Assembly: GCA_017480785.1 (NCBI GenBank)
Contig: JAFURZ010000005.1
Location: forward strand, 16,259-80,258
DNA length: 64,000 nucleotides
Source of the DNA: Bacteroidales bacterium
Lineage (GTDB): Bacteria > Bacteroidota > Bacteroidia > Bacteroidales > P3
Direction: 5' to 3'
The notes under the pieces were generated by a model. The model made no database searches. It saw nothing but the letters and a program-made list of their open reading frames with translations, and was not told the DNA's origin. Below are positions 5,326-62,000 of this stretch, piece after piece. Both the position numbers and the translations under genes were made by a program. Numbering within the stretch: the first letter of the stretch is position 1; each line of letters opens with the position of its first letter.

Positions 5326-6243
5326 ATGAAACAGATACAGAAAGCCGCCGAGCTTCAAGCGGCAGTAAGTGAAGCCAAAGCCAAGGGCCTGCAGATAGGC
5401 CTTGTGCCCACCATGGGCGCCCTGCACGAGGGCCACCTCTCGCTCATCGAGCGCGCCCTGAAGGAGAACGACCTCGTCGTGGTCTCCCTCTTCGTCAACC
5501 CCATCCAGTTCAACAACAGGGAGGACCTGGAGAAGTATCCCCGCACCATCGAGGCCGACCTGGAGCTAATCGAAGGGCTCATAGCTCACGCCGATTGCCG
5601 TGCCAAGGAGCTGTTGGCGTTCACGCCGACAGTCGACGAGATGTACCCCGACGGGGAGCCGACGGAGATTGTCTACCACTTCGGGCCCGTCGAGGAGGTG
5701 ATGGAAGGGCCGCGGCGTCCGGGCCACTTCAACGGGGTGGCCGTCGTGGTGCGCCGCCTGTTCGACCTCAGCCAGCCCACCCGCGCCTACTTCGGCGAGA
5801 AGGACTACCAGCAGATTGCCGTCATCCGCGCCCTGCTAGAGCAGATGCTACCCACTACCCACTACCCACTACCCACTCTCGTTCCCTGCCCCATCGTGCG
5901 TGCCGACGACGGCCTGGCCCTGAGCAGCCGCAACAAGCGCCTCACCCCCGCCGCCCGCCAGATGGCCCCCGCCATCAACGCCACCCTCGAGCAGGCCGCC
6001 GAGATGGCCGAGTACGAGGAGGTGGACGACGTCAAGGAGTGGGTGCTCGACACGCTGGCGTCGTGGCACGAGGTGAATGAGTGCGGCGAGGGCCTGAGGT
6101 TCGAGCCTGAATACTTCGAGATTGTCGACGCCATCACCCTCCAGCCCATCGCCGACTGGACGGATGCCGACGAGCACGGCGCAGTGGGCTGCATCGCCGT
6201 ATGGCTCGACGGCGTCCGCCTGATCGACATAGTTAAGTTTTAA
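5326..6243 (+). CDS. panC: Pantoate--beta-alanine ligase
   Basis: 305-aa ORF with PanC motifs GLVPTMGALHEGHLSLI, YFGEKDYQQ and DGLALSSRN. Carries an in-frame TACCCAC x4 array. Confidence 0.95.
   Translation: MKQIQKAAELQAAVSEAKAKGLQIGLVPTMGALHEGHLSLIERALKENDLVVVSLFVNPIQFNNREDLEKYPRTIEADLELIEGLIAHADCRAKELLAFTPTVDEMYPDGEPTEIVYHFGPVEEVMEGPRRPGHFNGVAVVVRRLFDLSQPTRAYFGEKDYQQIAVIRALLEQMLPTTHYPLPTLVPCPIVRADDGLALSSRNKRLTPAARQMAPAINATLEQAAEMAEYEEVDDVKEWVLDTLASWHEVNECGEGLRFEPEYFEIVDAITLQPIADWTDADEHGAVGCIAVWLDGVRLIDIVKF
5849..5876 (+). repeat. TACCCAC x4 heptamer array inside panC
   Basis: Four perfect 7-nt units read in frame as LPTTHYPLPT. Confidence 0.9.
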
Positions 6244-6252
6244 ACCCCACAA

Positions 6253-10124: not shown

Positions 10125-10605
10125 ATTCCAGTATCATTTCTTTCAGTGAACTATAGGCGCGCGAGAGGAGGGTGTAGACGTTGCCCGCATTGACGTGCAG
10201 TACCTCGGCTATCTGCTGCGTGTCGGCCCCTTGCAGGTGCTTGAGCCTGACGGCCAGCGCCTGCCGCTCGGGCAGCCGGTCGACCAGCTGTGTCGCCAGC
10301 CGCAGCCGCTCCTCGCCGGCATGGCTCTCCTCTTCGGCCAGGGCCATGGCGCGCTCGTCAATCTCGACGGTGGGCTTGCGCCGGCGCAGCAGGTCCACGC
10401 AACGGCGCTTGACAAGGGTGATGCACCACGCCTCGCGGTTGACCACCCGCCGCAGCTTCGCGCGCTCCTCCCACAGGGTGACGAAACAGTCCTGCACCAC
10501 GTCGGCAGCGTCGGCCTCGCTGCCCAGCAGGGTCTCGGCCATGCGCTGCATGGCGGGCTGCAAGGGCAGGTAGTCGTGTTTGAACTGTTCCGTTTCCTGT
10601 TTCAT
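10105..10605 (-). CDS. RNA polymerase ECF-type sigma-70 factor
   Basis: 166-aa ORF with region 2 (DAADVVQDCFVTLWE) and a region 4 HTH (QQIAEVLHVNAGNVYTLLSRA). Confidence 0.9.
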   Translation of the reverse strand: MKQETEQFKHDYLPLQPAMQRMAETLLGSEADAADVVQDCFVTLWEERAKLRRVVNREAWCITLVKRRCVDLLRRRKPTVEIDERAMALAEEESHAGEERLRLATQLVDRLPERQALAVRLKHLQGADTQQIAEVLHVNAGNVYTLLSRAYSSLKEMILEYENKQR

Positions 10606-10678
10606 AACTAGTAGTCGTAAATGGATACGAAATCTTACACTCAGGTAAAAAAAATTTTTTCAGTCAGACAGAAAAAAC

Positions 10679-10794
10679 CTCAATCAGAACTGAAAGGATT
10701 TATTCTCAATCAGAACTAAAAGAACTATCAGAATAGGGTCGTATTTCTTTTTGTTCTTTTAGTTCTGATTGAGATTTTGTTTCTGATTGAGATT
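10679..10794. repeat. Composite palindromic element (CAATCAGAAC / GTTCTGATTG family)
   Basis: Nested inverted repeats. Contains the complement of ttctgatagttcttttagttctgattg, the same unit found twice inside ribD. Confidence 0.8.
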
Positions 10795-11209
10795 AGACAA
10801 GGGCACGGAGTGCCAGCTCGTAGCCCTGCAGGCCGAGGCCGCACACCATGCCGCGGCAGGCCGAGGTGACGAGGGAGTGGTGGCGGTAGTCCTCGCGGGC
10901 GAAGATGTTGCTCAGGTGCACCTCCACCTTCGGGGCCGGCACGGCCAGCAGGGCATCGCGCAGGGCCACACTGGTGTGGCTGTAGCCCCCGAGGTTCACT
11001 ATCAGGCCGTCGGCCTCGAAACCGGCACGCTGTATCTCGTCGATGAGCTCGCCCTCCACGTTGCTTTGAAAAGAGGTTATCTCCACTTCGGGGAAGCGCA
11101 TTCCGAGTTCTTCGAGATACTGGTCCATGGTCATCGTGCCGTAGACCTCCGGCTCACGGAGTCCCGTGAGGTTGAGGTTGGGTCCGTTGATGATTTCTAT
11201 ATGTTTCAT
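10793..11209 (-). CDS. aroQ: Type II 3-dehydroquinate dehydratase
   Basis: 138-aa ORF with MKHIEIINGPNLNLTGLREPEVYG and HLSNIFAREDYRHHS. Confidence 0.95.
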   Translation of the reverse strand: MKHIEIINGPNLNLTGLREPEVYGTMTMDQYLEELGMRFPEVEITSFQSNVEGELIDEIQRAGFEADGLIVNLGGYSHTSVALRDALLAVPAPKVEVHLSNIFAREDYRHHSLVTSACRGMVCGLGLQGYELALRALV

Positions 11210-17900: not shown

Positions 17901-17975
17901 ATTATTTTAAAATATTTCAAATTTAATTATGCCGCAATCCACAAAGCGCTCTTTTCCACCAGCCTTGCAATTGAA

Positions 17976-18019
17976 TTCAACTTGAGTTCGACTTGAAAAC
18001 AAGTCGAACTCAAGTTGAA
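17976..18019. repeat. 19-bp-stem palindrome, sister of 4515-4566
   Basis: ttcaacttgagttcgactt-gaaaac-aagtcgaactcaagttgaa. Confidence 0.85.
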
Positions 18020-18048
18020 CTGAAATCAACAACATGAAAAAGAGGCGG

Positions 18049-19671
18049 CTACAGCAGGTCGAGCGAGTAGTGCAGACCGACGTTCTGCCGGCGGGCACGG
18101 GCCATCTTGATGATGAGATAGGCGCAGGCGATGAGGTTGCGCAGCTCGCTGAGGGGCTCGGTGAGCACGGAGCGGTTGTAGAGGTCCTCGGTCTCGCGGA
18201 AGATGAGGTTCAGACGGTCGAAGGCGCGCTGCAGGCGCAGGTCGCTGCGCACAATGCCGACATAGTTCCACATGATTTCCTGCAGCTCCTTCTTGGTCTG
18301 CGTGATGAGCACCATCTCCTCGTTGAGCACCATGCCCTCGGCGTTCCAGTCGGGCACTTTTGAGTGGGTAGTGGATAGTGGATAGTGGGTAGCATTTGAC
18401 CCTGTGCTCCCCACTACACACTCCCCACTACACACTTGCGCTATAGCCGACATGGCTGCGTTGTGGGCATAGACCACGGCCTCGAGCAGCGAATTGGAGG
18501 CCAGGCGGTTGCCGCCATGCAGACCCGTGCAGCTGCACTCGCCGGCGGCATAGAGGTTGAGGATGGACGATTGCCCGTTGCGGTCCACCTTGATGCCGCC
18601 GCACTGGTAGTGGGCTGCCGGCCGGATGGGTATCATGTCGCGCGTGATGTCGATGCCGATGGAGAGGCATTTGGCATAGATGGTGGGGAAGCCCTCGATG
18701 AGGTGCTTCTTGCCGATGCCGCGGGCGTCGAGGTAGAGGTAGTCCTTGCCGCTGAGTTTCATCTCGTTGTCGATGGCACGGGCCACAATGTCGCGCGGGG
18801 CGAGACTCAGGCGCTCGTCGTACTTCTGCATGAACTCCTTCCCGTCGCGGTCTTTCAGCACGGCGCCGGCGCCGCGCATGGCCTCGGTGATGAGGAAGGC
18901 GGGCTTCTCGGCGGGGTTGTAGAGCGAGGTGGGGTGGAACTGCATGAACTCCAGGTCGCTCAGCACGCCGCGGGCGCGGTGCACCATGGCCACCCCGTCG
19001 CCGGTCGAGATGACGGGCGTGGTGGTGGTGCTGTACACGTTGCCCATGCCGCCGGTGGCCAGCAGGGTGACGCGGGCCAGGTAGGTGTCGATGCGGTTGG
19101 TGTCACAGTCCAAAGCATAGACGCCGTAGCACTCGATGCCCGGCGTGTGCTTGGTGACGCGCTGGCCCAGATGGTGCTGGGTGATGATGTCGATGGCGAA
19201 CTGGCGTTCCTTGAGCTCGATGTTGGGATGCCGGCGCACGGCCTCGAGCAGGCCGCGCTCTATCTCCTCGCCTGTGTTGTCCTTGTGGTGCAGGATGCGG
19301 AACTCCGAGTGGCCGCCCTCGCGGTGCAGGTCGAAGCGGTCGCCGCCTTTCCCCTCGGCGGGGACGCGGTCGAAGTTGACCCCGTACTGCACCAGCTCGC
19401 GGATACGGTCAGGAGCCTCGCGGATGGTCATCTCCACCACCTCGCGGTCACAGATGCCGTCGCCGGCCACCAGGGTGTCCTGTATGTGCTTGTCGAACGA
19501 GTCGCTGTCGTACATCACCGCAGCGATACCCCCTTGGGCGTAGCGCGTGCTTCCCTCGCTGGCATCGCCTTTGGTCAGGATGCACACCCGGCCGTAGGGA
19601 GCCACCTTCAGGGCGAAACTAAGGCCCGCTATACCCGAGCCAACAACCAAGAAATCAACTTCGTAGCGCAT
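18049..19671 (-). CDS. nadB: L-aspartate oxidase
   Basis: ORF 18049..19758 trimmed to ATG 19671 (MRYEVDFLVVGSGIAGL FAD motif), downstream of TAtaTTTG (19695-19702, minus). Also RYAQGGIAAV. Carries an in-frame heptamer hairpin. Confidence 0.95.
   Translation of the reverse strand: MRYEVDFLVVGSGIAGLSFALKVAPYGRVCILTKGDASEGSTRYAQGGIAAVMYDSDSFDKHIQDTLVAGDGICDREVVEMTIREAPDRIRELVQYGVNFDRVPAEGKGGDRFDLHREGGHSEFRILHHKDNTGEEIERGLLEAVRRHPNIELKERQFAIDIITQHHLGQRVTKHTPGIECYGVYALDCDTNRIDTYLARVTLLATGGMGNVYSTTTTPVISTGDGVAMVHRARGVLSDLEFMQFHPTSLYNPAEKPAFLITEAMRGAGAVLKDRDGKEFMQKYDERLSLAPRDIVARAIDNEMKLSGKDYLYLDARGIGKKHLIEGFPTIYAKCLSIGIDITRDMIPIRPAAHYQCGGIKVDRNGQSSILNLYAAGECSCTGLHGGNRLASNSLLEAVVYAHNAAMSAIAQVCSGECVVGSTGSNATHYPLSTTHSKVPDWNAEGMVLNEEMVLITQTKKELQEIMWNYVGIVRSDLRLQRAFDRLNLIFRETEDLYNRSVLTEPLSELRNLIACAYLIIKMARARRQNVGLHYSLDLL
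18364..18435. repeat. GTGG(G/A)TA x4 array plus CTCCCCACTACACA x2 opposing arm inside nadB
   Basis: Left arm 18364-18393, right arm 18409-18435. Read in frame (minus) as ..VCSGECVVGSTGSNATHYPLSTTHS.. Confidence 0.85.
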
Positions 19672-23225: not shown

Positions 23226-23242
23226 CCTCCCCTTCACCTCCG

Positions 23243-23339
23243 CCATTTTTACGGTAGTATTACGGTAGTATTACGGTAGTATTACGCTTTAAAAGCGTAA
23301 TACTACCGTAATACTACCGTAATACTACCGTAAAAATGG
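23243..23339. repeat. ~47-bp near-perfect palindrome with TACGGTAGTAT 11-nt x3 arms
   Basis: ccatttttacggtagtattacggtagtattacggtagtattacgcttt | aaaagcgtaatactaccgtaatactaccgtaatactaccgtaaaaatgg. Confidence 0.9.
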
Positions 23340-23394
23340 TAGACCTGACATGGGGTCGAACAAAACTTTTTGCTCACGTATTAAATATTTTTTG

Positions 23395-26282: not shown

Positions 26283-26516
26283 AGGTGTGGTAATTTTATA
26301 AGGTTTTGTGCATTATTGCCATAAAAAAGGTACGGATGTTTCCGTCTGCCTTACAGGTTTACCACAACCTCCTTTCCCGACGGACACCGTACCATATAAA
26401 GCACGAATGCCCCAACGGGGAAGGATTATGGTGAAGCACTAATCGACTTCGAGGTGGTAATTTGTAAGGCAATTGAGTTCTTCTTGCCGTATGCATATCT
26501 CTCGCAAACGACGGTG

Positions 26517-26584
26517 CAAAAATACAAACTTTCTGCGACGTGACCAAATTTATTTTGCCATGTGGCTGAAATGTTGTATCTTTG
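26517..26584. promoter_or_regulatory. Back-to-back Bacteroides-type promoters (TM2 gene leftward, ribD rightward)
   Basis: Leftward TAttTTTG is the complement of 26517-26524; rightward TAtcTTTG is at 26577-26584. Central CAAA-tttat-TTTG supplies both -33 elements with 19-20 nt spacers. Confidence 0.65.
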
Positions 26585-26594
26585 CACCCTGAAA

Positions 26595-27677
26595 ATGACA
26601 CAGGAAGAGATAGACAAAAAGTATATGCGGCGCTGCCTGCAGCTGGCAGCCAACGGACTGGGTCGCGTGAGGCCCAACCCGTTGGTGGGGTGCGTGGTGG
26701 CGAGGCAAACGGAGAGTGGAGAGTGGAGAGTGGAGAGTGAAGGTTACCACCAATACTATGGCGGATGGCACGCCGAGCGCAACGCACTATTGCGTGCAAG
26801 CCAACTTTCAACTTTCAACTCTCAACTTTCAACTTTATATGTCAACCTCGAGCCCTGCTCGCACTACGGCCACACGCCACCCTGCGCCGACCTCATCATC
26901 GAGAAGGGCATCCGCCGGGTGGTCTGCTGCAACGACGACCCCAACCCCCTGGTGGCGGGGGGCGGCTTCCGCAAGCTGGAGGCCGCCGGCATCGAGGTGG
27001 TGCGTCACGTGCTCGAAGCGGAGGGCCGCGAACTGAACCGCCGCTTCTTCACCTTCATGGAGCAGCAGCGGCCCTACGTCATCCTCAAGTGGGCCGAGAG
27101 CAAGGACGGCTACATGGCGCCAAGCCCTAATTCTCAATCAGAACAAAAAGAAAATTCTGATAGTTCTTTTAGTTCTGATTGCAATAAAAAATACTGGCTC
27201 AGCACGCAGGAGCAGAACCGCCTGAACCACCGCTGGCGCACCGAGGAGGCCGCCATCCTCGTGGGCAGTGAGACCTTCCTGCGCGACCACCCCTCGCTCA
27301 CGGCACGCCACTACCTCGGTTCACAGCCGCAGCCCGTGGTGCTCGACCGCCGCGGACGCTTACTATCCCAATCAGAGGTTATTTCTCAATCAGGACTAAA
27401 AGAAAGTTCTGATAGTTCTTTTAGTTCTGATTGCAACAAAAGAGAATGGCTGGTTCTGCGGAGCCAGACCATCCCCGAGGTGCTGCATGCACTCTACGAG
27501 CACAAGCTGCAGAGCGTCATCGTCGAGGGCGGCCGCCAGATGCTGGACGCCTTCATCGAGAGCGGCCTCTACGACGAGGTGCGCATCCTCCGCAGCCTGC
27601 AGACCCTCGGCAGCGGCCTCAAGGCTCCCGCCATCCCGCCCATCGCCCCCAACCGCCTAATCATCATCGAGCCATGA
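26595..27677 (+). CDS. ribD: Bifunctional riboflavin biosynthesis deaminase/reductase RibD
   Basis: ORF 26562..27677 trimmed to ATG 26595, 10 nt after TAtcTTTG. Motifs RPNPLVGCVV, HAE, LEPCSHYGHTPPC and the reductase motif VIVEGGRQMLDAFIESGLYDEV. Confidence 0.9.
   Translation: MTQEEIDKKYMRRCLQLAANGLGRVRPNPLVGCVVARQTESGEWRVESEGYHQYYGGWHAERNALLRASQLSTFNSQLSTLYVNLEPCSHYGHTPPCADLIIEKGIRRVVCCNDDPNPLVAGGGFRKLEAAGIEVVRHVLEAEGRELNRRFFTFMEQQRPYVILKWAESKDGYMAPSPNSQSEQKENSDSSFSSDCNKKYWLSTQEQNRLNHRWRTEEAAILVGSETFLRDHPSLTARHYLGSQPQPVVLDRRGRLLSQSEVISQSGLKESSDSSFSSDCNKREWLVLRSQTIPEVLHALYEHKLQSVIVEGGRQMLDAFIESGLYDEVRILRSLQTLGSGLKAPAIPPIAPNRLIIIEP
26711..26738 (+). repeat. GGAGAGT x4 heptamer array inside ribD
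   Basis: Four perfect units read as ESGEWRVES. Confidence 0.9.
26803..26837 (+). repeat. AACTTTC x5 heptamer array inside ribD (imperfect inverse of 26711-26738)
   Basis: Units aactttc x2, aactctc, aactttc, aacttta. Read as QLSTFNSQLSTL. Confidence 0.9.
27127..27190 (+). repeat. In-frame palindromic element copy 1 inside ribD
   Basis: aatcagaacaaaaagaa...ttctgatagttcttttagttctgattgcaa. Reads PNSQSEQKENSDSSFSSDCNKK. Confidence 0.85.
27368..27445 (+). repeat. In-frame palindromic element copy 2 inside ribD
   Basis: caatcaggactaaaagaa...ttctgatagttcttttagttctgattgcaa (30 nt identical to copy 1). Reads SQSEVISQSGLKESSDSSFSSDCNKRE. Confidence 0.85.
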
Positions 27678-30887: not shown

Positions 30888-31077
30888 ACCCTCGGAAAAT
30901 ACATCGTGCGCGATGTAATTAGACATTCTCCACCCCTCTCCACCCCCGGGGCCCTCCCGCCTCCCTCCGACCCGCCCCCTCCCCGTCGGATGCGCCCCAA
31001 TTCCCTCATACAGCTACAACCACTTGATTATCAGCATCTATATAACCAAAATACATTTAAACCGCAGAAAATCAGCA

Positions 31078-31160
31078 TCAACTCCGTAACAACTCCGACT
31101 CAACTCCGACACAACTCCGACCATGGTCCGACTGCAGTCGGAGAATCGTCGGAGTAGTTT
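31078..31160. repeat. CAACTCCGAC(A/T) 11-nt tandem units with opposing GTCGGAG arms
   Basis: caactccgtaa/caactccgact/caactccgaca/caactccgacc ... gtcggagaatc/gtcggagtagtt. Confidence 0.75.
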
Positions 31161-31412
31161 TGGTGATGAAACGGAGGTGGTGCAGATTATATCGTGCACG
31201 ATTTAATTCACAATCCCGCACCACCGACGGTGGCCCAGGTCGGCGAGGTGGAGGAGGAGGAAAAAGCAGCCGGAGCAAAACTTTTTTTGGCCGTGTCGGA
31301 AAAAAGTTGTAATTTCGTGCTTTGAAGCAGCCCGCCCATTCGCGCCCTCGACAGCGTACAACGGGTTGATTTCGACGTAGATAAACCGTTTTGACAAAAT
31401 AGAGACATATAT

Positions 31413-34130: not shown

Positions 34131-34134
34131 CACA

Positions 34135-34203
34135 GTGGATAGTGGGCAGTGGGTAGTGGGTAGCACACGTGGTCAGCAGCTACCCACTACCCACTACCCA
34201 CTA
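34135..34203. repeat. GTGGGTA x4 / TACCCAC x3 hairpin between the PorE-like stop and the miaA core
   Basis: gtgggtagtgggtagc (34149-34164) pairs perfectly with gctacccactacccac (34179-34194). Confidence 0.9.
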
Positions 34204-37790: not shown

Positions 37791-37912
37791 CCGACCATTG
37801 CACCGACCGGGCCGCTTTGCCCGCCGGAAGCATCGAACAAGGCCCGGGGAAAGGTCGACACAATCCCCTGTCCCCACATCCTCAGGGTTTTCAACTGCTG
37901 TTCTTCGGTCGT

Positions 37913-37971
37913 TTTACGGTAGTATTACGCTTTTTTCTCGAAGAACAGTAAAAGAACAGTAAAAGAACAAC
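37913..37971. repeat. Composite of the TACGGTAGTAT unit and GTAAAAGAACA units
   Basis: ttttacggtagtattacgctttt (matches an arm of 23243-23339) followed by agaacagtaaaagaacagtaaaagaaca. Confidence 0.75.
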
Positions 37972-38097
37972 CATAGAAATGGCAGAGGCGGCGGGGCGCG
38001 GAGAGCGAGGAGTCGGGGACAATGCCTCCCGGGGACTTGGGCAGCAGCAAAACCTGTTGATTTTGGTGCGTCCATCCCGAGGAAAGAAAAAAAATAT

Positions 38098-41423: not shown

Positions 41424-41485
41424 CCGCGCATCATTGCAAAACCGTGTCGCAGCACTGAAAACTGACTTCGCATCGATGCGGAGGC
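41424..41485 (-). repeat. 3' element, diverged copy downstream of the lipoprotein gene
   Basis: The reverse complement ..cagtgctgcgacacggttttgcaatgatgcgcgg aligns with the 3' two-thirds of 56381-56426. Adjacent palindrome cgcatcgatgcg. Confidence 0.6.
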
Positions 41486-41523
41486 TCTGGTTGAACTAAA
41501 AAACGATCTTGCCTCAATTCTTA

Positions 41524-42308
41524 TTATTCAATCATTTCAACGGTTCTTCCAGACGAAAAGCACTCAAGTGTATTGGGTTCTCCTGTATTGAAATAACACG
41601 GAGATGCAGAAACCATCATGGTAAAAAAACCTATTTTCTTCACCTCACATCTCGTGATATAAAATTTGTTTCTAATCTTTTTCCATTGAGGATTGTCTAT
41701 ATTATTTGAAAAAGTAAGGATGTGTTCACACATAAGATCTTCTTTACTGTATACTCCTTTTTTTCTCTCTAGAGAGTACCTAGAGGGTCTTGTCATTCGG
41801 AAGAACTTGACGTTACTTCTTGAATGAGGAGGGATTCCAACAAAACGTTCTTCTGTGGTCTGAACAAACGTGCCTGATGTAGAAGTTTCCCCCATGTTTA
41901 CACCATTTGCTACGGTTTGAGTTATTGGTCCAGCGCCTACGGCTCTTGTCACCGCACCGGCATTCACATTCATACTCCTGCTTTGGATATTCGTTGTTGT
42001 GACGACAGCATTATTATATATTTTGATAGCGTTTCCATAATTAGTTCCAAGTTCGTTATGTGAAATAAAAAAGGATTCCCCCAGATCAATATATAACATG
42101 CTGTCCGTCTCATTATAAACAAACAATGAACCATCTACATCATATTCTAACCGAATACCTTCATCTGAAATGGAGACTTCCATTCGAGATTGGTTGTCAG
42201 GTTTACATTCAGAATTAACACAGCGAACAGTGTAGGTTAGTCGGTTTACCGGCACGCATGATGTAAAAAGTGTAATTGCTAGGGTAGCAACAAAAAAGTT
42301 TTTTTCAT
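41524..42308 (-). pseudogene. Hypothetical lipoprotein gene, start codon out of frame at an A7/T6 tract; phase-variation candidate (AT-rich islet)
   Basis: The body ORF 41524..42255 is listed from GTG. Upstream, ATG 42308 reads MKKTFLLLP-stop. One extra A (A8) or T (T7) would give MKK(N/T)FFVATLAITLFTSC VPVNRL..., a canonical lipoprotein signal fused to the body. GC content is far below the flanks. No domain recognised. Confidence 0.5.
42292..42305 (-). repeat. A7-C-T6 tract immediately after the ATG of the lipoprotein gene
   Basis: Minus strand reads atg aaaaaaa c tttttt g. A +1 change in either run restores the lipoprotein signal peptide frame. Confidence 0.85.
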
Positions 42309-42560
42309 ATTTTATACCCTAATACGTGCCGGGCGCAACTTTCAAGCTCTTCCGCACCCCGTTGAGCGATTATTAAAGAAGCGTGGTGCCGTCACACCAT
42401 TCTTACATGGAGGTCGTAGGAATTACCTTGAAAAGAGAAGATGCAATAAGCCCACGCTATATAGCGAAGACCATTACACAAATTCTGCTTTTCTCTGGAA
42501 GTTTCCTACGTTTCCATGTACAGAATAAGCGTAAACGCTTCGGTGATTTCCTCATGAAAT
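42309..42560 (-). promoter_or_regulatory. Conserved long 5' leader (copy 1) upstream of the frameshifted lipoprotein gene
   Basis: Aligns block by block with 55647-55880. Shared blocks include GATTTC-N5-GAAATC, CGAAGCGTT, TATAGCGTGG, CAAGGTA, ACCACGCTTCT and CGCTCAACGGGGT. Confidence 0.55.
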
Positions 42561-42566
42561 CGACTG

Positions 42567-42634
42567 CAAAAGTACAAACTTTCTACGACGTGGCCAAATT
42601 TATTTTGCCATGTGGCTGAATTGTCGTATCTTTG
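42567..42634. promoter_or_regulatory. Back-to-back promoters (lipoprotein gene leftward, Bro-N gene rightward)
   Basis: Leftward TActTTTG is the complement of 42567-42574; rightward TAtcTTTG is at 42627-42634. 67/72 identical to 26515-26586. Confidence 0.65.
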
Positions 42635-42657
42635 CAGTCGGAAAACACACATTCGGC

Positions 42658-45701: not shown

Positions 45702-45727
45702 AGTTACTGACTGTTGATTTGGTGTTG

Positions 45728-45795
45728 CAAAGATACAAAAGTTGTACGAGATGACAAAATTAATTTTGCCACGTCGCGGAATATGTGTATCTTTG
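45728..45795. promoter_or_regulatory. Back-to-back promoters (comM/yifB leftward, sodB rightward)
   Basis: Leftward TAtcTTTG is the complement of 45728-45735; rightward TAtcTTTG is at 45788-45795. Central CAAA-attaat-TTTG with 19-nt spacers. Confidence 0.65.
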
Positions 45796-47146: not shown

Positions 47147-50100
47147 ATGGTTAGAAGAATCTACGTAGAGAAGAAATCCCCCTATGCCGTGAAGGCGAAG
47201 GAGCTCAAGACCGAAATGAGCGAATACCTCGGCATCGAAGCCGACGTGGTACGCGTGCTGGTGCGCTACGACGTGGAGAATGTCAGCGACGCCACCTTCC
47301 ACACCGCGCTGACCACCGTCTTCAGCGAGCCTCCGGTGGACGACGTGTACCTCGAAGAGTTTCCCCGCAAGGAGAACGACTTCTGCTTCACCGTGGAGTA
47401 CCTCCCCGGCCAGTTCGACCAACGGGCCGACAGCGCCGAGCAGTGCGTCTGCCTCCTCAACGACGCCGAGCACCCCATCATCAAGTCTGCCACCACCTAC
47501 GTCATCTCTGGAGTGGATAGCGGGAAGTGGAAAGAGGACAGCGACTGGCAATCGGCCATCATCGCCCACTGCGTCAATCCGGTCGACAGCCGCCGTGCCG
47601 ACGGTCCCAAACCAGACACCCTCGAGGACCACTTCGACGAGCCTGCCGACGTCATCACCTTCGACGGCTTCAAGGACATGCCCGAGCCGCAGCTGAAAAG
47701 CCTTTACGACGGCCTCGGACTGGCCATGACCTTCGCCGACTTCCTGCACATCCAGCGCTACTTCCACGACGAGGAGCACCGCGACCCCACGATGACCGAA
47801 ATCCGCGTCCTCGACACCTACTGGAGCGACCACTGCCGCCACACCACCTTCGCCACCGAGCTGAAGGACGTCCGCTTCGACGACGGCTTCTACCGCCCCC
47901 TCATCGAGGGCGCCTTCCGGCAGTACCTCGCCGACCACCGCGAGCAGTATGCCGGACGCACCGACAAGTACGTCTGCCTGATGGATATCGGCACCCTGGC
48001 GGCCAAACGGCTCAAGAAAGCCGGCTACCTCGACGACCAGGAGCCCAGCGACGAAATCAACGCCTGCTCCATCGTGGTGCCCGTCACCATCGACGGCAAC
48101 CGCGAGGAGTGGCTCATCAACTTCAAGAACGAGACCCACAACCACCCCACCGAGATTGAGCCCTTCGGCGGCGCGGCCACCTGCCTCGGCGGCTGCATCC
48201 GCGACCCGCTCAGCGGCCGCACCTACGTCTACCAGGCCATGCGCGTCACCGGCGCCGCCGACCCCACCAAGCCCCTCAGCGAGACCCTCCCCGGCAAGCT
48301 GCCCCAGCGCAAGATTGTCACCACCGCCGCCCGCGGCTACTCCAGCTACGGCAACCAGATAGGCCTCGCCACAGGGCTAGTCAACGAGATATACCATCCC
48401 AACTACGTAGCCAAGCGCCTGGAGATAGGCGCCGTCATCGCCGCCGCCCCGCGCCGTGCCGTGAAGCGCCTCACCTCCGACCCGGGCGACGTCATTATCC
48501 TGCTTGGTGGCCGCACCGGCCGCGACGGCATCGGCGGCGCCACGGGTGCCTCGAAGAGCCACACCAGCAAGTCGCTCACCACCTGCGGCGCCGAGGTGCA
48601 GAAGGGCAACGCCCCCACCGAACGCAAGATACAACGCCTCTTCCGCCGCGAAGAGGTCAGCAGCCTCATCAAGAAGTGCAACGACTTCGGCGCCGGCGGC
48701 GTCAGCGTGGCCATCGGCGAACTGGCCGACGGACTCCAAATCAACCTCGACCGCGTACCCAAGAAGTATGCCGGCCTCGACGGCACCGAACTCGCCATCA
48801 GCGAGAGCCAGGAGCGCATGGCCGTGGTGGTCGACCCCAAGGATGTGGACCAGATGCTGCGCTACGCCGACGAGGAGAACCTCGAAGCCACCGTCGTGGC
48901 CACCGTCACCGAGGAGCCCCGCATGGTCATCTCTTGGCGCGGCAAAGAGATAGTGAACCTCAGCCGCCGCTTCATCGACACCAACGGCGCCCACCAGGAA
49001 ACCACCGTGAAGGTGAAGATGCCCGAGAAAATTGAAAATGGAAAATTGAAAATTGAAAATTCGCTGCCGCACCCGGATAATTCTCAATTCTCAACTCTCA
49101 ATTCTCAATTGAAGGACCTTTGGTTCCAGACCCTCTCCGACCTCAACGTCTGCTCGCAGAAAGGCCTCGTCGAGATGTTCGACAGCTCCATCGGCGCCGG
49201 CAGCGTGGTGATGCCCTTCGGCGGCCGCTACCAGCTGACGCCCACGCAGTGCATGATAGGCAAGCTGCCCCTCCTGGACGGCAAGTGCGACACCGTGACC
49301 CTCATGTCCTACGGCATGGACCCCTACCAGACCTCGTGGAGTCCCTTCCACGGCGCCGCCTATGCCGTGCTCGGCAGCGTGGCCAAGATTGCCGCCGCCG
49401 GCGGCGACGTCAGCCGCGTGCGCCTCACCTTCCAAGAATACTTCAAGAAACTGGGCACCGACCCCTACCGCTGGGGCGAGCCCTTCACCGCCCTCCTCGG
49501 CGCCTACCACGCCCAGATGGGCCTCCACCTACCCGCCATCGGCGGCAAGGACTCCATGTCCGGCACCTTCAACGACATCGACGTGCCGCCCACCTTCTGC
49601 TCCTTCGCCGTCGGCGTCAGCGACCTGCAGCACGTCGTCACCCCCGAGCTGAAGAAAGCCGGCAACCGGCTGGTGCTGCTCGATGTCAAGGAGGACCAGT
49701 ACGGCATGCCCGACTATGCCGACGCCCTCAACCAGTACGCCGCCCTGCACCGCGCCGTCGAGGCCGGCCGGGTGTGCAGCGCCTATGCCCTCGGCATGGG
49801 CGGCATCGTCGAGGCCGTCAGCAAGATGGCCTTCGGCAACAAGCTGGGCGTCCGCATGGCCCCCGTGCCCGAGACATCAGCCTCGGGTCTCGCCGCCAAG
49901 CACTATGGCTGGCTTGTCGTCGAGGTAGCCGGCACAGAAGAGCTGCCCTTCCGCTGCACCGGGATTGGCGAGGTCACCGCCGAGCCCGTGTTCGAGGTGG
50001 CCGGCGAGAAGATAAGCCTCGACGAGGCCCTCGCCGCATGGCAGAAGACGCTCGAAGGCGTCTTCCCCACCCGTAGCACCCAGCAAGCGGAAAGTGGAAA

Positions 50101-50977
50101 GTGGAAAGTGGAAAGCGCTCTGTACAACACTCCGAAGGAGAAACTTTCAACTTTCAACTATCAACTTTCAAGTTCCGCGAAGCCGAGAGTCTTCATCCCC
50201 GCCTTCCCCGGCACCAACTGCGAGTACGACTCGGCCCGCGCCTTCAACCGCGCCGGTGCCGAGAGCGAAATCATCGTCTTCCGCAACCAGAACGGCCAGC
50301 AGATTCGCGAGAGCGTGGACGCCTATGTCGACGCCATCCGCCGCAGCCAGATTATCATGCTGCCCGGCGGCTTCAGTGCCGGCGACGAACCCGAAGGCAG
50401 TGCCAAATTCATCACCAGCGTCTTCCGCAACCCCAAGATTGCCGACGCCGTGATGGAGCTGCTCCAGAAGCGCGACGGCCTCATGCTGGGCATCTGCAAC
50501 GGCTTCCAGGCCTTGGTGAAGCTCGGCCTGGTGCCCTACGGCGAGATACGTCCGCAGGCCGCCGACGCCCCCACGCTGACCTTCAACACCATCGGCCGCC
50601 ACCAGAGCAAGATGGCCTACACCCGCGTCAGCTCCAACCTCAGCCCCTGGCTGCGCAAGGCCGAACTCGGCGCCACCTACGTCATTCCCATCTCGCACGG
50701 CGAGGGCCGCTTCGTGGCCCCGCAGGAATGGATTGACAGCCTCTTCCGGAACGGACAGGTGGCCACACAGTACTGCGACCTCGACGGCAACCCCACCATG
50801 GACGAGGAGTACAACATGAACGGCTCCTACTGCGCCATCGAAGGCATCACCAGCCCCGACGGACGCGTCTTCGGCAAGATGGGACACAGCGAACGCCGCA
50901 GCAAAGGCAGCGCCCTCAATATCTATGGCAACGACGACCAGCAGATATTCGAGAGCGGCGTACAGTACTTCAAGTAG
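47147..50977 (+). CDS. purL: Phosphoribosylformylglycinamidine synthase (single-chain)
   Basis: 1276-aa ORF with NHPTEIEPFGGAATCLGGCIRD, a repeated AIR-synthase-like core and a C-terminal glutaminase (GICNGFQAL, SHGEGR). Two in-frame heptamer hairpins. Confidence 0.97.
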   Translation: MVRRIYVEKKSPYAVKAKELKTEMSEYLGIEADVVRVLVRYDVENVSDATFHTALTTVFSEPPVDDVYLEEFPRKENDFCFTVEYLPGQFDQRADSAEQCVCLLNDAEHPIIKSATTYVISGVDSGKWKEDSDWQSAIIAHCVNPVDSRRADGPKPDTLEDHFDEPADVITFDGFKDMPEPQLKSLYDGLGLAMTFADFLHIQRYFHDEEHRDPTMTEIRVLDTYWSDHCRHTTFATELKDVRFDDGFYRPLIEGAFRQYLADHREQYAGRTDKYVCLMDIGTLAAKRLKKAGYLDDQEPSDEINACSIVVPVTIDGNREEWLINFKNETHNHPTEIEPFGGAATCLGGCIRDPLSGRTYVYQAMRVTGAADPTKPLSETLPGKLPQRKIVTTAARGYSSYGNQIGLATGLVNEIYHPNYVAKRLEIGAVIAAAPRRAVKRLTSDPGDVIILLGGRTGRDGIGGATGASKSHTSKSLTTCGAEVQKGNAPTERKIQRLFRREEVSSLIKKCNDFGAGGVSVAIGELADGLQINLDRVPKKYAGLDGTELAISESQERMAVVVDPKDVDQMLRYADEENLEATVVATVTEEPRMVISWRGKEIVNLSRRFIDTNGAHQETTVKVKMPEKIENGKLKIENSLPHPDNSQFSTLNSQLKDLWFQTLSDLNVCSQKGLVEMFDSSIGAGSVVMPFGGRYQLTPTQCMIGKLPLLDGKCDTVTLMSYGMDPYQTSWSPFHGAAYAVLGSVAKIAAAGGDVSRVRLTFQEYFKKLGTDPYRWGEPFTALLGAYHAQMGLHLPAIGGKDSMSGTFNDIDVPPTFCSFAVGVSDLQHVVTPELKKAGNRLVLLDVKEDQYGMPDYADALNQYAALHRAVEAGRVCSAYALGMGGIVEAVSKMAFGNKLGVRMAPVPETSASGLAAKHYGWLVVEVAGTEELPFRCTGIGEVTAEPVFEVAGEKISLDEALAAWQKTLEGVFPTRSTQQAESGKWKVESALYNTPKEKLSTFNYQLSSSAKPRVFIPAFPGTNCEYDSARAFNRAGAESEIIVFRNQNGQQIRESVDAYVDAIRRSQIIMLPGGFSAGDEPEGSAKFITSVFRNPKIADAVMELLQKRDGLMLGICNGFQALVKLGLVPYGEIRPQAADAPTLTFNTIGRHQSKMAYTRVSSNLSPWLRKAELGATYVIPISHGEGRFVAPQEWIDSLFRNGQVATQYCDLDGNPTMDEEYNMNGSYCAIEGITSPDGRVFGKMGHSERRSKGSALNIYGNDDQQIFESGVQYFK
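49027..49110 (+). repeat. GAAAATT x5 / AATTCTC x4 inverted heptamer arrays inside purL
   Basis: Left arm 49027-49061, right arm 49079-49110. Reads KIENGKLKIENSLPHPDNSQFSTLNSQL. Confidence 0.9.
50089..50171 (+). repeat. GGAAAGT x4 / AACTTTC x4 inverted heptamer arrays inside purL
   Basis: Left arm 50089-50116, right arm 50142-50171. Reads ESGKWKVESALYNTPKEKLSTFNYQL. Confidence 0.9.
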
Positions 50978-59057: not shown

Positions 59058-62000
59058 CTAATGGTGGATTACGAGTGTTTGATGGGCACGTCCGGTGGCT
59101 GTCACGAGCCGTAGCAGGTAGACACCGTCGGGGAGGGACGGGAAGCGGTAGGTGGCGGGGGCTACATGGCGCGTCGAGAAACAGAGGCGGCCGTAGAGGT
59201 CGAGCACCTGCAGTTCACCCTGCCCGCCGCCGTCCACCGTCACCGTGCCGTTGCACGGGTTGGGGAAGACATGCAGCGACGGCAGGCCGGGCTGCACTAT
59301 GCCGAGCCGGGTGCTGTCGCCAAACCAGCCATAGGCCGAATCCCACAGCGCCAGCGGAAGCCTCACGTCGTCAATCCACGCACAGTCGCTGCCGGCCGAG
59401 CCGCTCTCGTCCTTCACATAGCGCCACCGCAGCGTGTGGCGGCCGGCGTCGAGCACCGTCGTGTAGCATTTCCATCCGGCTTCGCCCCACCGTTCGTTGC
59501 CGCGCCGCACGCCGTCGACCGAGAAGAGCAGCTTGTCATACTGCGCCTCGCTCGACACCCGCGACCAGTAGCTGAGCGTGTCGCGTTGGGGGAGCAGCAC
59601 CTCGAGGACGAGGTCCGAGGTCTGGCGGTAGTCGATGGCACCGCTGCGCACGCTGAAGCGGCCGCTGTGACTCACCGTGCTATCCACCACCCACGGCTGC
59701 GTGCCGCCCTGTTGCCACGGATAGCTGGCGAAGCCCTCCTCGAAGCTGTCGGCCCGTTGGCCGCCGACCATGTACCAGTCGTAGTCCCTGCGGTGGTTGC
59801 CCAGCGCGACGGAGGCCTGCAGGTGCAGGTGGGTCAGGGTGTCGTCGGGGGTGGAGAATGGAGAGTGGAGAGTGGGGAGTGGAGAGCGGAAAGTGGAAAG
59901 CGTATCGCCCGAAGGGAGTGCGGTGAGGCCGAGGCTCACGCTGTCGCACGACCCCTCGACGGTGGTCTGAAGCAAGTATGTGTGCATCGGCAGCAAGCGG
60001 TTTGTCTCGCTGCTGTCGGCCTCCAGCAGGCGGACCGAGAGTTCGGGATAGCGAGGTTCCAGCCGCCCTTGCAGCCTGATGCAGCACAGCATCCCCTCGA
60101 TGCTGTCCCAGGCGAAGAGGTACGCCTGCCAGCCCGGCTGCTGTCCCACGGCAACCAGCTGCAACGGCACCGCCACCCGACGACTCTGGTGCGGCAGCAG
60201 GGTGTCGACCACCGTCTGTTGCTCTGCGACCAAGGCGTCGGCAGCACTGTCGGCATCAATCTGCGACAGCACCACCCGCAGGCCGTAGAGCGGCACCGCG
60301 CCCACGTTCTCCACGCGGCACTCCACCACGCTGTCGCCGACCGTCACTTCACGCAGCGCCACCCCAGTGCCTTCGGCAGCCGCCACAGTCAGCGTGTCAA
60401 TCCGCGGCCGGTGGTGACGGGCTGTGGCCGTGAGGACGAGCAGCGAGGTGTCGACCGACTGACCGAGCTGCAACGCCAGCAGTCCGTCGGGACCCATCAC
60501 GCCCATGCCCAGCACCGTGTCGTGCTGCATGGCCGTGACCGTACAGCCCGGCGTGCCGCCCAGATGCAGCGTGCCCGCGCCGTCAGTCGGCTGCCCGTTG
60601 GTCAGGTGCAGCTCGAGGGGCTGCGGAACACCCACCCAAGGCTCGAGCGACGGGTCTCCCAGCAGGCAGTAGGTCTCCCAGTAGAACTTGTCGTAGGGCG
60701 ACCCCACCGCCGTGACCGCCAGGTTGCCGGCCGTCAGCAGCTCGCCTTGGCTGTGCACCCCACCCGTGCGGCCCAGCCACCGGTCGAACGGACCGGGGCG
60801 CAGGCTGTCGTACTGCGGCGTGAGGCTCAGCGGGAGCTTCGGCCCCACGGCCCAGTAGTAGTCCTCGTCCCAGAGGGTGGAGTTGGTGGCGCCGATGACG
60901 CCGATGGCGCCGCCGTCGGCCTTGCGCAGCAGCTGCTCGCCGAAGCAGGTGCCGTCGAAGGCGTTGCTCAGGCAGCAGTTGTTCACGTAGAGGAGCGGCT
61001 GCGGGTTGTCGAGGGTGTCGATGCTGGTGAAGGTCACCGACGGACTGGTCCAGCCGGCGGAGGTGCAATGGGCCGTATAGTTGAGCAAGGCCACGCCGCG
61101 GCGCAGGTCGCCGAGGATGGCCGGCCGTTGGTCGGCCGAGGCGGGGTTGTGGTAACACAGGGTGTCGAGGAAGGGATGCGCCAGACGTGCCTCACGCGCC
61201 ACATAGTCCACCTGCCCGTTGGTGGTCACCGGTGCCGGCGCGCGGTCTTCGCTTCCGGCCACCAGCAGCAGGCGCTTCAGGCGTGCAGTGTCGATGTCGG
61301 CGCCCTGCTCGTAGCGGATGCACTTACGCACCACGGCGCCCAGCTCGGCGGTGTCGTTCACCGGCCAGCGGCCCAGCAACGCGTCGGGCAGGTAGTCGCC
61401 CGTGAACTCGGCATAGTAGAGGTCGGTGACGTGGTTGCCGAGGCCGGTGGGATGTGTGGTGCCCGGGAAAGCCTGCAGCAGCGCCACATCGCCCACCAGC
61501 AGCACGTGGCGCGGTCCACGGCTGCCGTCGGCGCTCCAGAGGGGGCGCATCAGGGCCTTCACGCTGTCGCGCAGGTGGGTGTCGACATAGAGCTCCATCA
61601 CCTCGAAGCCCTGCTGCCGTTTCCAGCGTACAAAAGGCTGCAATCCTTCGCGGAACAGCGGCCGCGACACAACCAGATAGCCATGGGTGCCAAGCGACGG
61701 GGAGGCGGCCTTGCCGACATGCAGCAGCGCGTCGACCGAGGTATCGCACTCCAGAAGGCCGTCCACGGGCCGGTAGCCCACGGGGCGCACCGTCACCCGG
61801 AACAGCTGCTCTGCTCCCATCACGCCGAGGAGCTCCACCTCCACCCGCCCGCCGCCGCGGTAAAGGTCGCCGGAGCCATACACCTTCGCGTCGGGACAGT
61901 AGTCGGGCGGCAGCCCGTCCTTGACCCATCCCTCCGTCACCGGTGCCAGGGGGCGGCCCTGCGGCACGACATCCATCGACACGGTGCCGGTCGACCGCAC

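What the first reader, a model, noticed from the sequence alone, without database searches (positions are those of the whole stretch)
27127..27445. The same palindromic-element unit is inserted twice in frame in ribD and also exists as an intergenic palindrome
A 30-nt string, ttctgatagttcttttagttctgattgcaa, occurs at 27156-27185 and at 27406-27435. Each copy is preceded by a partner arm (aatcagaac.aaaagaa), giving two hairpin elements of 64-78 nt. Both are translated within the reductase domain as ..ENSDSSFSSDCNKK.. and ..ESSDSSFSSDCNKR... The complement of the same unit forms the composite palindrome at 10679-10794 between aroQ and the ECF sigma gene. This resembles Rickettsia palindromic elements (RPE), which insert in frame into genes. 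I am not aware of an equivalent described for Bacteroidota.
Basis: partly seen in the sequence, partly recalled or inferred. Interest (0 to 1): 0.75.

Follow-up and report, generated by a model that had tools for sequence, protein, structure and literature searches.

The report
Hairpin repeats translated inside rumen-bacterium genes
A short, AT-rich hairpin repeat that normally sits between genes in a group of uncultured rumen Bacteroidales is also inserted, in frame and translated, into loops of riboflavin enzyme RibD and other proteins, much like the palindromic elements of Rickettsia but in a free-living gut bacterium.

Summary
The 30-mer occurs exactly twice in ribD (27155-27184 and 27407-27436, one base off the stated coordinates). 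A 2-mismatch copy lies on the other strand in the aroQ/ECF-sigma spacer.

Each ribD copy has a partner arm and folds as a hairpin. Both lie in frame in an intact gene that evolves under purifying selection.

Close RibD orthologues (68-85% identity) have these sites empty, filled by the same element, or filled by unrelated repeats. The arm 18-mer is dispersed through many rumen Bacteroidales MAGs. Of 64 hairpins, 25 lie in coding sequence: RibD, MutS2, a glycosidase-like protein, a protease and a methyltransferase.

All 25 use one frame (QSELKEQKE...SSFSSDC). The element's terminal TGA is removed only at the translated end.

This is a new, sequence-unrelated analogue of the Rickettsia palindromic elements. 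It is shorter and built from 9-nt modules.

- ribD carries four repeat-derived segments. The other two are heptamer arrays, and panC, nadB, purL and a C25 peptidase carry similar inserts.
- Silent sites inside the elements are about twofold more conserved than in the rest of ribD, so something acts at the DNA or RNA level.

How the element spreads is unknown.

The parts
26595..27677 (+). ribD coding sequence (360 aa plus stop), host of four repeat-derived in-frame segments
   Evidence: TIGR00326, 235 bits. The core evolves under purifying selection.
27132..27184 (+). Element copy A (RibD site 3, residues about 177-199). Left arm 27135-27152; right-arm modules TTCTGATAG/TTCTTTTAG/TTCTGATTG at 27155-27181; terminal TGC replaces TGA; an A-rich tail runs to 27193.
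   Evidence: dG -17.3 kcal/mol, z -4.8. The site is empty (ATPGP) in 44 of 120 orthologue clusters.
27369..27436 (+). Element copy B (RibD site 4, residues about 257-284). Orphan outer half-arm CAATCAGAG at 27369-27377; left arm 27387-27404; right arm 27407-27433; TGC at 27431-27433, followed by AAC AAA AGA.
   Evidence: dG -22 kcal/mol, z -2.7. The site is empty (RLTDVPSHW) in L113 and L115.
26711..26739 (+). Heptamer array (GGAGAGT) x4.1 at RibD site 1. It encodes ESGEWRVES and lengthens a beta-hairpin turn.
   Evidence: The short form (K-DG-RII) is found in 72 of 115 orthologue clusters.
26802..26836 (+). Heptamer array (CAACTTT) x5 at RibD site 2. It encodes QLSTFNSQLSTL. It can pair over a long range with the site 1 array.
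   Evidence: 26705-26845: -49.5 kcal/mol, z -4.1. Relatives carry other heptamer units at the same place.
10679..10795 (.). Intergenic composite copy of the same element. Inner arms 10704-10733 and 10745-10774, with outer CTCAATCAGAA/TTCTGATTGAG arms. It lies directly after the aroQ stop and is followed by T6 on the aroQ sense strand.
   Evidence: The orthologous spacer is empty in L119 and L120 and holds a variant element in L118.
5848..5877 (+). Heptamer array (CTACCCA) x4.3 in frame in panC, encoding LPTTHYPLPTL
18363..18436 (-). Heptamer-armed hairpin in frame in nadB; a 17-aa insertion relative to E. coli NadB
   Evidence: dG -39.7 kcal/mol, z -4.5
49027..49110 (+). Hairpin (GAAAATT)n/(AATTCTC)n in frame in purL. 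One unit reads GAAAATG, which removes an in-frame TGA.
50085..50171 (+). Hairpin (GGAAAGT)n/(AACTTTC)n in frame in purL
59851..59897 (-). Heptamer array (GTGGAGA-type) x6.7 inside the C25 peptidase/T9SS gene

Best explanation
The two ribD segments are copies of a small (about 45-130 nt), AT-rich, non-autonomous palindromic repeat. The repeat is dispersed through the high-GC genomes of a clade of uncultured rumen and gut Bacteroidales.

Anatomy. Each arm is a short array of 9-nt modules (CAATCAGAA / CTAAAAGAA / CTATCAGAA and their complements). The ends are TCTCAATCAG...CTGATTGAGA.

Between genes. Copies sit mostly right after stop codons and are flanked by A or T runs. That is the layout of an intrinsic, often bidirectional, terminator or 3'-end stabiliser. 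This role is inferred, not shown.

Inside genes. Copies also land in coding sequence. They survive there only under four conditions:
- the added length is a multiple of three;
- the frame is the one reading Ser-Gln-Ser-Glu-Leu-Lys-Glu...Ser-Ser-Phe-Ser-Ser-Asp, which is hydrophilic and low in complexity;
- the terminal TGA has been changed to TGC, TGG, TGT or AGA;
- the site is a loop between secondary-structure elements.
The element is then translated as an extra loop and the enzyme stays functional. Translation is inferred from evolutionary evidence only.

Turnover. RibD has four such permissive loops. In different lineages they are empty, hold this element, or hold unrelated hairpins or heptamer arrays, so turnover is rapid.

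Spread. The spreading mechanism is not established. My best guess is hairpin-dependent copying or recombination with the many other genomic copies. That would also explain why silent sites in the elements stay near the family consensus and never drift toward the host's GC-rich codons.
For: - Repeat and hairpins are real.
- Presence/absence at orthologous sites, in ribD and in the aroQ spacer.
- Composition: GC3 is 0.04-0.20 in the elements against 0.71-0.89 in the ribD core.
- Census: 64 hairpins in 635 kb, 25 of them in coding sequence, at 8 independent host sites: RibD sites 3 and 4, MutS2, a transglutaminase-like protein, a GH2-like glycosidase, an S8 peptidase, and two sites in a methyltransferase.
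- Frame: all 25 coding copies use the same frame.
- Stop removal: TGA is kept at 1 of 25 translated ends. It is kept at 22 of 25 opposite ends and at 59 of 78 ends of non-coding copies.
- Host gene under purifying selection: divergence by codon position is 0.106/0.062/0.407, and the catalytic residues are invariant.
- Loop positions: the sites align to gaps in solved RibD structures and fall between secondary-structure elements in the model.
- Nested insertions inside elements, in P0026, P0011 and P0099.
- Silent-site identity is 0.84-1.00 inside the elements against 0.56-0.74 in the core, and this holds where the flanks are diverged.
Against: - No transposase, target-site duplication or autonomous parent element was found. 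Only one clean filled-versus-empty intergenic comparison was available.
- Insertions look like replacements of 5-6 codons rather than clean insertions.
- Part of the high element identity between some genomes comes from mosaic recombination of ribD blocks.
- The census is biased, because the loci were chosen for an exact 18-mer.
- There are no expression or protein data.
- The structure model was poor (mean pLDDT 57), so loop placement rests mainly on sequence alignment to solved structures.
Confidence: 0.75

Rival explanations
1. The hairpins and heptamer arrays are made where they sit, not moved there. Replication slippage would amplify one short unit. A fold-back or template switch would then copy the array in inverted orientation. 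Resemblance between loci would come from shared mutational bias or later gene conversion.
For: - Arms are tandem arrays of 7-, 9- or 11-nt units.
- At RibD site 2 the array keeps its place and length while the unit differs between genomes: CAACTTT, CCACTTT, CACCTTT, CCCACTA, CAATTCT.
- The L118 element has AAAAC in place of AGAAC in every module of both arms.
- Inserts replace rather than add sequence, and there is no target-site duplication.
- The site 2 array runs into conserved Thr-Leu codons.
- Template switching is known to create hairpins in one step (bioRxiv 10.1101/2023.04.19.537475, listed; abstract only read).
Against: - An identical 18-27 nt arm recurs at over 100 loci in many species and in unrelated genes. 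This needs copying from existing copies, not independent local origin.
- The same composite order of modules recurs.
- Nested insertions look like arrivals from elsewhere.
Confidence: 0.15
2. The copies inside genes are kept because the DNA or RNA hairpin itself does something. Candidates are pausing or attenuating transcription or translation of ribD, serving as an RNase processing site, or serving as a protein-binding site. The peptide would be a by-product.
For: - Third-codon-position divergence in the elements is 0.16-0.18 against 0.41 in the core. First- and second-position divergence is equal or higher.
- There is no drift toward host codon usage.
- Stems are retained in both copies.
- The site 1 and site 2 arrays can pair across the HAE motif using G-U pairs that work only in the sense strand.
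Against: - Many orthologues lack the elements or carry unrelated ones at the same site, so no specific structure is required for RibD.
- Stem positions are often mismatched without compensation, as with CGAAAAGAA opposite TTCTTTTAG.
- Site 1 and site 2 arrays occur independently of each other.
- Homogenisation by gene conversion explains the silent-site conservation equally well.
Confidence: 0.2
3. ribD here is a decaying pseudogene, or the inserts are assembly or binning artefacts.
For: Four low-complexity inserts in a 1-kb gene look suspicious, and the source is a metagenome-assembled genome.
Against: - The frame is uninterrupted and the catalytic residues are invariant. The codon-position divergence pattern is typical of purifying selection, and the equivalog score is above the cut-off.
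- The identical protein is on 9 contigs.
- The same elements appear at the same sites in MAGs from several independent projects.
Confidence: 0.02
4. The segments are ancestral, non-repetitive variable loops of this RibD lineage that merely resemble each other.
For: The sites are naturally variable loops in RibD.
Against: - A 30-nt exact repeat lies within the gene and the same sequence lies in intergenic DNA.
- GC3 is 0.1-0.2 against 0.7-0.9 in the core.
- Empty alleles exist.
- The same element occurs in unrelated proteins.
Confidence: 0.02

Closest known systems
Rickettsia palindromic elements (RPE; Ogata et al. 2000, as summarised in PMC10969869 and PMC3733652)
   Same: - Dispersed palindromic repeats with no coding capacity for a transposase.
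- Found between genes and also in frame inside unrelated housekeeping genes.
- Read in a preferred frame as a conserved peptide.
- Tolerated because they fall in loops; the host genes stay functional.
   Different: - No sequence relationship is evident.
- The core is about 45-65 nt (up to 130 nt when composite), against roughly 100-150 bp.
- Arms are built from 9-nt tandem modules.
- The host is a GC-rich, free-living rumen anaerobe, not an AT-rich obligate intracellular alphaproteobacterium.
- Several unrelated repeat families compete for the same loops.
- Silent sites in the elements are more conserved than in the host gene.
Protein-coding palindromic repeats of Wolbachia (Ogata, Suhre, Claverie 2005, cited in PMC3733652) and of Methanocaldococcus jannaschii (recalled from memory, not checked)
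   Same: They show that in-frame palindromic repeats occur outside Rickettsia.
   Different: Different phyla and sequences. I did not have those sequences to compare.
REP/BIME elements mobilised by RAYT transposases
   Same: Short imperfect palindromes in high copy number, located after stop codons, with a proposed terminator or mRNA-stabiliser role.
   Different: - REPs are GC-rich and extragenic, and carry a GTAG or CGTC head (PMC3733652).
- Here the ends are TCTCAATCAG/CTGATTGAGA.
- The elements are AT-rich, and 39% of sampled copies are in coding sequence.
- No RAYT was seen, though only 64 kb plus fragments were examined.
Bacterial MITEs (Correia/NEMIS, ERIC, RUP, BOX)
   Same: Small, non-autonomous, with terminal inverted repeats; occasionally give in-frame fusions (PMC10969869, PMC2759123).
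   Different: No target-site duplication at the one clean empty/filled site. No parent insertion sequence is known. The whole element is a hairpin of tandem modules.
Cyanobacterial heptanucleotide repeats (STRR) and GGGNATC heptamer arrays of Xanthomonas and Nostoc (PMC4692102)
   Same: Tandem heptamers dispersed over the genome, often close to the ends of reading frames.
   Different: [quoted passage not shown] In this window most heptamer arrays lie in frame inside genes and often come as inverted pairs.

Membership tests
Rickettsia palindromic elements (RPE) | Palindromic sequence able to form a stable hairpin | tested here: met
   (z -4.8, -2.7, -7.4)
Rickettsia palindromic elements (RPE) | Multicopy and dispersed, both between genes and in frame within unrelated reading frames, read as a conserved peptide | tested here: met
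   25 of 64 copies in coding sequence, one frame, 8 host sites
Rickettsia palindromic elements (RPE) | Sequence homology to the RPE-1 to RPE-10 consensus sequences, and occurrence in Rickettsiales | not tested
The host is Bacteroidales and the element is one third to one half the length. I therefore treat it as an analogue, not a member.
Rickettsia palindromic elements (RPE) | Insertion sites lie at the protein surface or in loops, compatible with fold and function | tested here: inconclusive
   The sites align to gaps or variable segments of solved RibD structures and fall between predicted secondary-structure elements. The model is of low confidence (pLDDT 57).
MITE | Terminal inverted repeats | tested here: met
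   TCTCAATCAGAAC...GTTCTGATTGAGA
MITE | Target-site duplication flanking the insertion | tested here: not met
   In the aroQ spacer, filled (window) against empty (L119, L120), no duplication is visible. In ribD the inserts replace 5-6 codons. Only one clean site was available.
MITE | A related autonomous insertion sequence with the same ends | not tested
   No whole genome was available. No transposase was found in the window reading frames scanned.
REP/BIME | Conserved GTAG or CGTC tetranucleotide head and GC-rich stem of 20-40 bp | tested here: not met
   Read directly from the sequences. The feature definition is from PMC3733652.
REP/BIME | Associated RAYT (Y1 transposase) gene in the genome | not testable with these tools
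   Needs the complete genome.
Intrinsic terminator | Stable stem-loop immediately followed by a T run on the sense strand, after a stop codon | tested here: inconclusive
   The intergenic copy begins right after the aroQ stop and is followed by TTTTTT. The consensus scanner did not call it, because the stem is AT-rich and longer than the scanner's rules allow. The ribD copies are followed by A-rich sequence, not T runs.
RibD (TIGR00326 equivalog) | Score above the curated cut-off; deaminase HAE/PCxxC and reductase VEGG motifs present | tested here: met
   235 bits against 156.35; invariant columns

The most novel reading that the evidence does not exclude
The repeats would not be passively tolerated selfish DNA. 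Instead, an as yet undescribed templated copying or gene-conversion process would keep rewriting them.

That process would build hairpins from one short unit, since whole arrays and both arms change in concert. It would keep intragenic copies at the family consensus and repeatedly replace the contents of the same protein loops.

A corollary concerns the heptamer arrays inside ribD, panC, nadB and purL. A change of one unit shifts the frame. Such changes could therefore switch costly vitamin and purine pathways on and off in a cross-feeding rumen community.
Probability: 0.2. Interest if true: 0.85.

Novelty: new variant of a known kind. Interest (0 to 1): 0.7.

Why it matters
- It extends in-frame, translated palindromic repeats from reduced intracellular genomes to abundant free-living gut Bacteroidales. 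It does so at high density: four segments in one 1-kb gene and five or more affected housekeeping genes in 64 kb.
- It affects practice. The inserts split orthologues in 90% clusters and depress family scores. They can be mistaken for errors or pseudogenes in MAG annotation, and they offer strain markers.
- It is a natural catalogue of loop positions in RibD, PurL, NadB, PanC and MutS2 that accept 5-40 extra residues.
- The conserved silent sites and the concerted changes of modules point to an unknown homogenising or generating mechanism. That mechanism could be studied with existing rumen metagenomes, transcriptomes and proteomes.

Tried and rejected
- Phage origin. The 18-mer hits 13 viral contigs, but all are single chance matches in AT-rich DNA with no partner arm. 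The 127-nt element has no blastn match in GenBank phages.
- Known RNA family. Rfam finds nothing at the elements; its only hits are two Acido-Lenti-1 matches elsewhere.
- Terminator and promoter consensus scans were uninformative.
- Nearby transposase. Pfam on 20 window reading frames found none.
- GxxExxY nuclease as mobiliser. A gene of this family is flanked by elements in L018, but no such gene is in the window. This stays a lead only.
- Structure-based mapping. The AlphaFold model from 37 close sequences was poor (pLDDT 57), so I did not run fold searches.
- Required site 1/site 2 pairing. The two arrays occur independently in orthologues.
- Ribosomal bypass of the hairpins. The inserts are always a multiple of three and free of stops.
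- An unbiased covariation test was not attempted. All sampled copies were selected on an exact arm. Inverted duplication would also give covariation without any selection.
Full report
**1. The observation**

The 30-mer TTCTGATAGTTCTTTTAGTTCTGATTGCAA occurs exactly at 27155-27184 and 27407-27436. With two mismatches it also occurs on the minus strand at 10704-10733. None of 100 shuffles gave any match.

Each ribD copy is preceded by an 18-nt arm that is 94% complementary: 27135-27152 and 27387-27404. The segments fold at -17.3 kcal/mol (z -4.8) and -22.0 kcal/mol (z -2.7). The intergenic composite at 10674-10800 folds at about -50 kcal/mol on either strand (z -7.4 and -8.8).

The frame 26595-27677 is open throughout. 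It encodes a 360-aa RibD with the quoted peptides. The identical protein is on record from 9 contigs.

**2. Host organism and gene**

The best protein and DNA matches are uncultured rumen and gut Bacteroidales MAGs. The window is 60% GC, with GC3 of 0.75-0.9 in genes. It also encodes a T9SS-tailed peptidase.

RibD scores 235 bits against the TIGR00326 equivalog, above the 156-bit cut-off. It aligns end to end with solved RibD structures. Across 37 orthologues the HAE, PCxxC and VEGG motifs are invariant.

Among nine ribD genes, core divergence by codon position is 0.106/0.062/0.407. That is the signature of purifying selection on a working protein. The pseudogene refutation therefore fails.

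**3. These are insertions**

In the alignment of close orthologues and in codon alignments of nine genes, site 3 lies between DG[FY]MAP and YWLS. It takes three forms:
- a 5-residue loop (ATPGP and similar);
- this element;
- quite different inserts.

Site 4 lies after LDRRxR. It is short (LTDVPSHW), or holds this element, or holds other inserts.

Over the 120 closest cluster representatives:

| Site | Empty or short | This element | Other inserts |
|---|---|---|---|
| Site 3 | 44 | 22 | 46, of at least a dozen kinds |
| Site 4 | about 49 (42 scored empty, plus about 7 mis-scored by the pattern) | 58 | about 10 |

GC3 is 0.04-0.20 in the elements and 0.71-0.89 in the core.

The inserts replace 5-6 codons rather than adding cleanly.

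**3a. ribD has two more repeat-derived segments**

- (GGAGAGT) x4 at 26711-26739 (site 1).
- (CAACTTT) x5 at 26802-26836 (site 2).

Both are absent from some orthologues: K-DG-RII at site 1 and GDY[HC]GA at site 2. At site 2, other genomes carry arrays of a different heptamer at the same place and of about the same length: CCACTTT, CACCTTT, CCCACTA, CAATTCT.

**4. A dispersed family**

Most are rumen Bacteroidales MAGs from several independent projects. The rest are chance hits in AT-rich genomes.

Aligned copies show the anatomy. The ends are TCTCAATCAG...CTGATTGAGA. The arms are made of 9-nt modules in varying number and order. The loop is variable, and A or T runs often flank the element.

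A search for arm pairs in 635 kb of high-GC loci plus the window found 64 hairpins. Of these, 25 lie inside long, high-GC3 reading frames. The host proteins, assigned by reading the translations except where a profile search is noted, are:
- RibD (profile-tested; sites 3 and 4);
- MutS2;
- a transglutaminase-like protein;
- a GH2-like glycosidase;
- an S8 peptidase;
- an N6-methyltransferase-type enzyme (two sites).

That makes eight independent sites. The sample is biased toward exact arms, so 39% is a rough figure.

**5. Evidence for translation and selection**

All 25 coding copies use one frame, QSE[LQ]KE...S[SF]SSD[CWR]. A second frame of each arm is also open (SIRTKRT and LLVLIE). Seen as eight independent events, the bias is unlikely by chance, about (1/2)^8 per arm. 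It points to selection for a hydrophilic peptide.

The consensus right end GAT TGA is a stop in that frame. TGA is present at 1 of 25 translated ends. It is present at 22 of 25 of the opposite, untranslated-sense ends and at 59 of 78 ends of non-coding copies.

The heptamer hairpins show the same editing:
- In purL, one GAAAATT unit reads GAAAATG exactly where an in-frame TGA would fall.
- The partner of (ACTTTCA)n is (GGAAAGT)n or (GGAGAGT)n, not the perfect complement (TGAAAGT)n, which would carry TGA.

Downstream domains remain conserved. I conclude that the elements are read through by the ribosome. This is an inference; no protein data exist.

**6. Position in the protein**

Against Thermotoga and Bacillus RibD:
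- Site 1 lengthens a beta-hairpin turn by 5 residues.
- Site 2 replaces the segment before the strand that leads into the EPC motif.
- Site 3 aligns to an 18-residue gap in the loop before the conserved W-[IL]-[TS].
- Site 4 falls in a segment that is naturally variable in length.

The model places all four sites between secondary-structure elements, but its confidence is low (pLDDT 57). From memory of the Bacillus RibG work, not checked here, the site 3 loop is close to the phosphate-binding Ser/Thr of the reductase site. Tolerance there would be notable.

**7. Silent sites in the elements are unusually conserved**

Between orthologues, third positions of identical codons are 56-74% identical in the core and 84-100% identical in the elements.

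Divergence by codon position:

| Region | Position 1 | Position 2 | Position 3 |
|---|---|---|---|
| Core | 0.106 | 0.062 | 0.407 |
| Site 4 element | 0.151 | 0.060 | 0.177 |
| Site 3 element | 0.136 | 0.258 | 0.159 |

A sliding profile shows that ribD alleles are mosaics. Some identity, such as L079 with L078 and L116, comes from shared recombinant blocks. In other pairs (window with L022, window with L079, L115 with window) the peak is confined to the element while the flanks sit at 0.2-0.6.

Three causes could produce this. The copies could be younger than the genes. They could be homogenised against the genomic pool. Or they could be constrained as nucleic acid. These data cannot separate the three.

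**8. Intergenic behaviour**

In the aroQ/ECF-sigma spacer, relatives L119 and L120 have only 13-21 nt between the stop codon and a conserved gtgtaagattt block. The window has the 130-nt composite directly after the stop, followed by TTTTTT.

L118 has a sister element in which every module reads AAAAC instead of AGAAC, with matching GTTTT on the other arm. No target-site duplication is visible.

The position and the T run fit a terminator or 3'-end hairpin, but the simple scanner did not call it.

**9. The wider phenomenon in the window**

Similar in-frame repeat inserts occur in other genes:
- panC, 5848-5877, encoding LPTTHYPLPTL;
- nadB, 18363-18436, a 17-aa insertion relative to E. coli;
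- purL, 49027-49110 and 50085-50171, and probably 47512-47543;
- the C25 peptidase, 59851-59897;
- an anti-sigma-like reading frame, 9709-9765 (assigned only from its position after the ECF sigma gene; no Pfam match).

These rest. The peptide ESGEWRVES of RibD site 1 recurs in an S8 peptidase of another MAG. LPTTHYPL recurs in panC, in the start of the miaA-like frame, and at RibD site 2 of other genomes.

**10. Comparison with known systems**

The closest analogue is the Rickettsia palindromic element. Both are dispersed palindromes found between genes and in frame in unrelated genes, read as a preferred peptide (PMC10969869, PMC3733652).

I do not file this element as a member of that family. 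The phylum differs, the length is a third to a half, the architecture is modular, and no homology was tested.

It fails the GTAG/CGTC head that defines REPs. It also fails the target-site duplication expected of MITEs, though on limited evidence.

The heptamer arrays recall cyanobacterial and Xanthomonas heptamer repeats. [quoted passage not shown]

Five literature searches found no description in Bacteroidota (review PMC10969869). The library is incomplete, so this is absence of evidence only.

**11. Verdict**

It is a new variant of a known kind. Its density, its host, the competition of several repeat families for the same loops, and the DNA-level conservation all give it added interest. 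The mechanism of spread is the main unknown.

Noticed in passing
window 6252-6299 (-) and 6401-6447 (+): Two Rfam Acido-Lenti-1 matches (43 and 40 bits; gathering score 37) form an inverted pair of GC-rich hairpins just downstream of panC. They may be another small repeat family.
   Followed up: no
window 26515-26595, 42565-42645, 45726-45806, 54980-55060, 55559-55612: Near-palindromic blocks of about 80 nt (TGCAAAAATACAAAC...TTTGCCA...TATCTTTGCA), 65-90% alike, lie upstream of genes, including directly before the ribD start. They look like shared Bacteroidetes-type promoter regions.
   Followed up: no
window 23234-23348, 4506-4566, 17965-18030, 1174-1240, 37871-37978, 62355-62421, 31070-31190: Intergenic palindromes whose arms are tandem 11-nt units (TTACGGTAGTA, CAAGTCGAACT, CTGTTCTTTTA, CAACTCCGACA). 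They share the architecture of the ribD element but have different sequences, and several are shared between loci.
   Followed up: partly
window 34134-34203: A heptamer hairpin, (AGTGGGT)n/(CTACCCA)n, starts right after the stop of the gene ending at 34130. Its right arm encodes LPTTHYPL at the N-terminus of the miaA-like reading frame.
   Followed up: partly
window 9709-9765 (- strand gene 9381-10133): An 11-nt array, (AACGCCTTACC) x5, lies in frame in the reading frame downstream of the ECF sigma gene. It encodes PQRLTNALPTPYQRLTN.
   Followed up: partly
L018 4730-5194 (-); also L014, L026, L054: A GxxExxY (TIGR04256, PD-(D/E)XK-like) gene inside a glycosyltransferase cluster is flanked by copies of the element. 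The element supplies the gene's last residues (NSSFSSD) and its TGA stop. This is a possible link between the element and a nuclease.
   Followed up: partly
L116 site 3 (ribD of P0018) and P0048, P0054, P0059, P0072: A GC-rich palindrome, CCTCACCCC(C)TACCCCTCTCC...GGAGAGGGGTCGGGGGTGAGG, encoding SLTPYPSPKERG...PSPRGEGSGVR, occupies the same RibD loop as the AT-rich element.
   Followed up: partly
ribD of L079, L078, L116, L005 (alignment columns 240-330): The ribD alleles are mosaics. Blocks with 90-100% silent-site identity lie next to blocks at 30-60%, which indicates recombination between species-level lineages.
   Followed up: partly
L072 (MutS2): Besides the element in its coiled-coil region, this MutS2 carries the segment SVHSPSLPLTPSHSS just before the Walker A motif. 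The segment looks derived from a heptamer array.
   Followed up: no
window 41484-42338 and 42547-43494: An AT-rich stretch holds a 243-aa reading frame that was not searched against any family. Next to it is a Bro-N domain protein. This may be a remnant of a mobile element or prophage.
   Followed up: no
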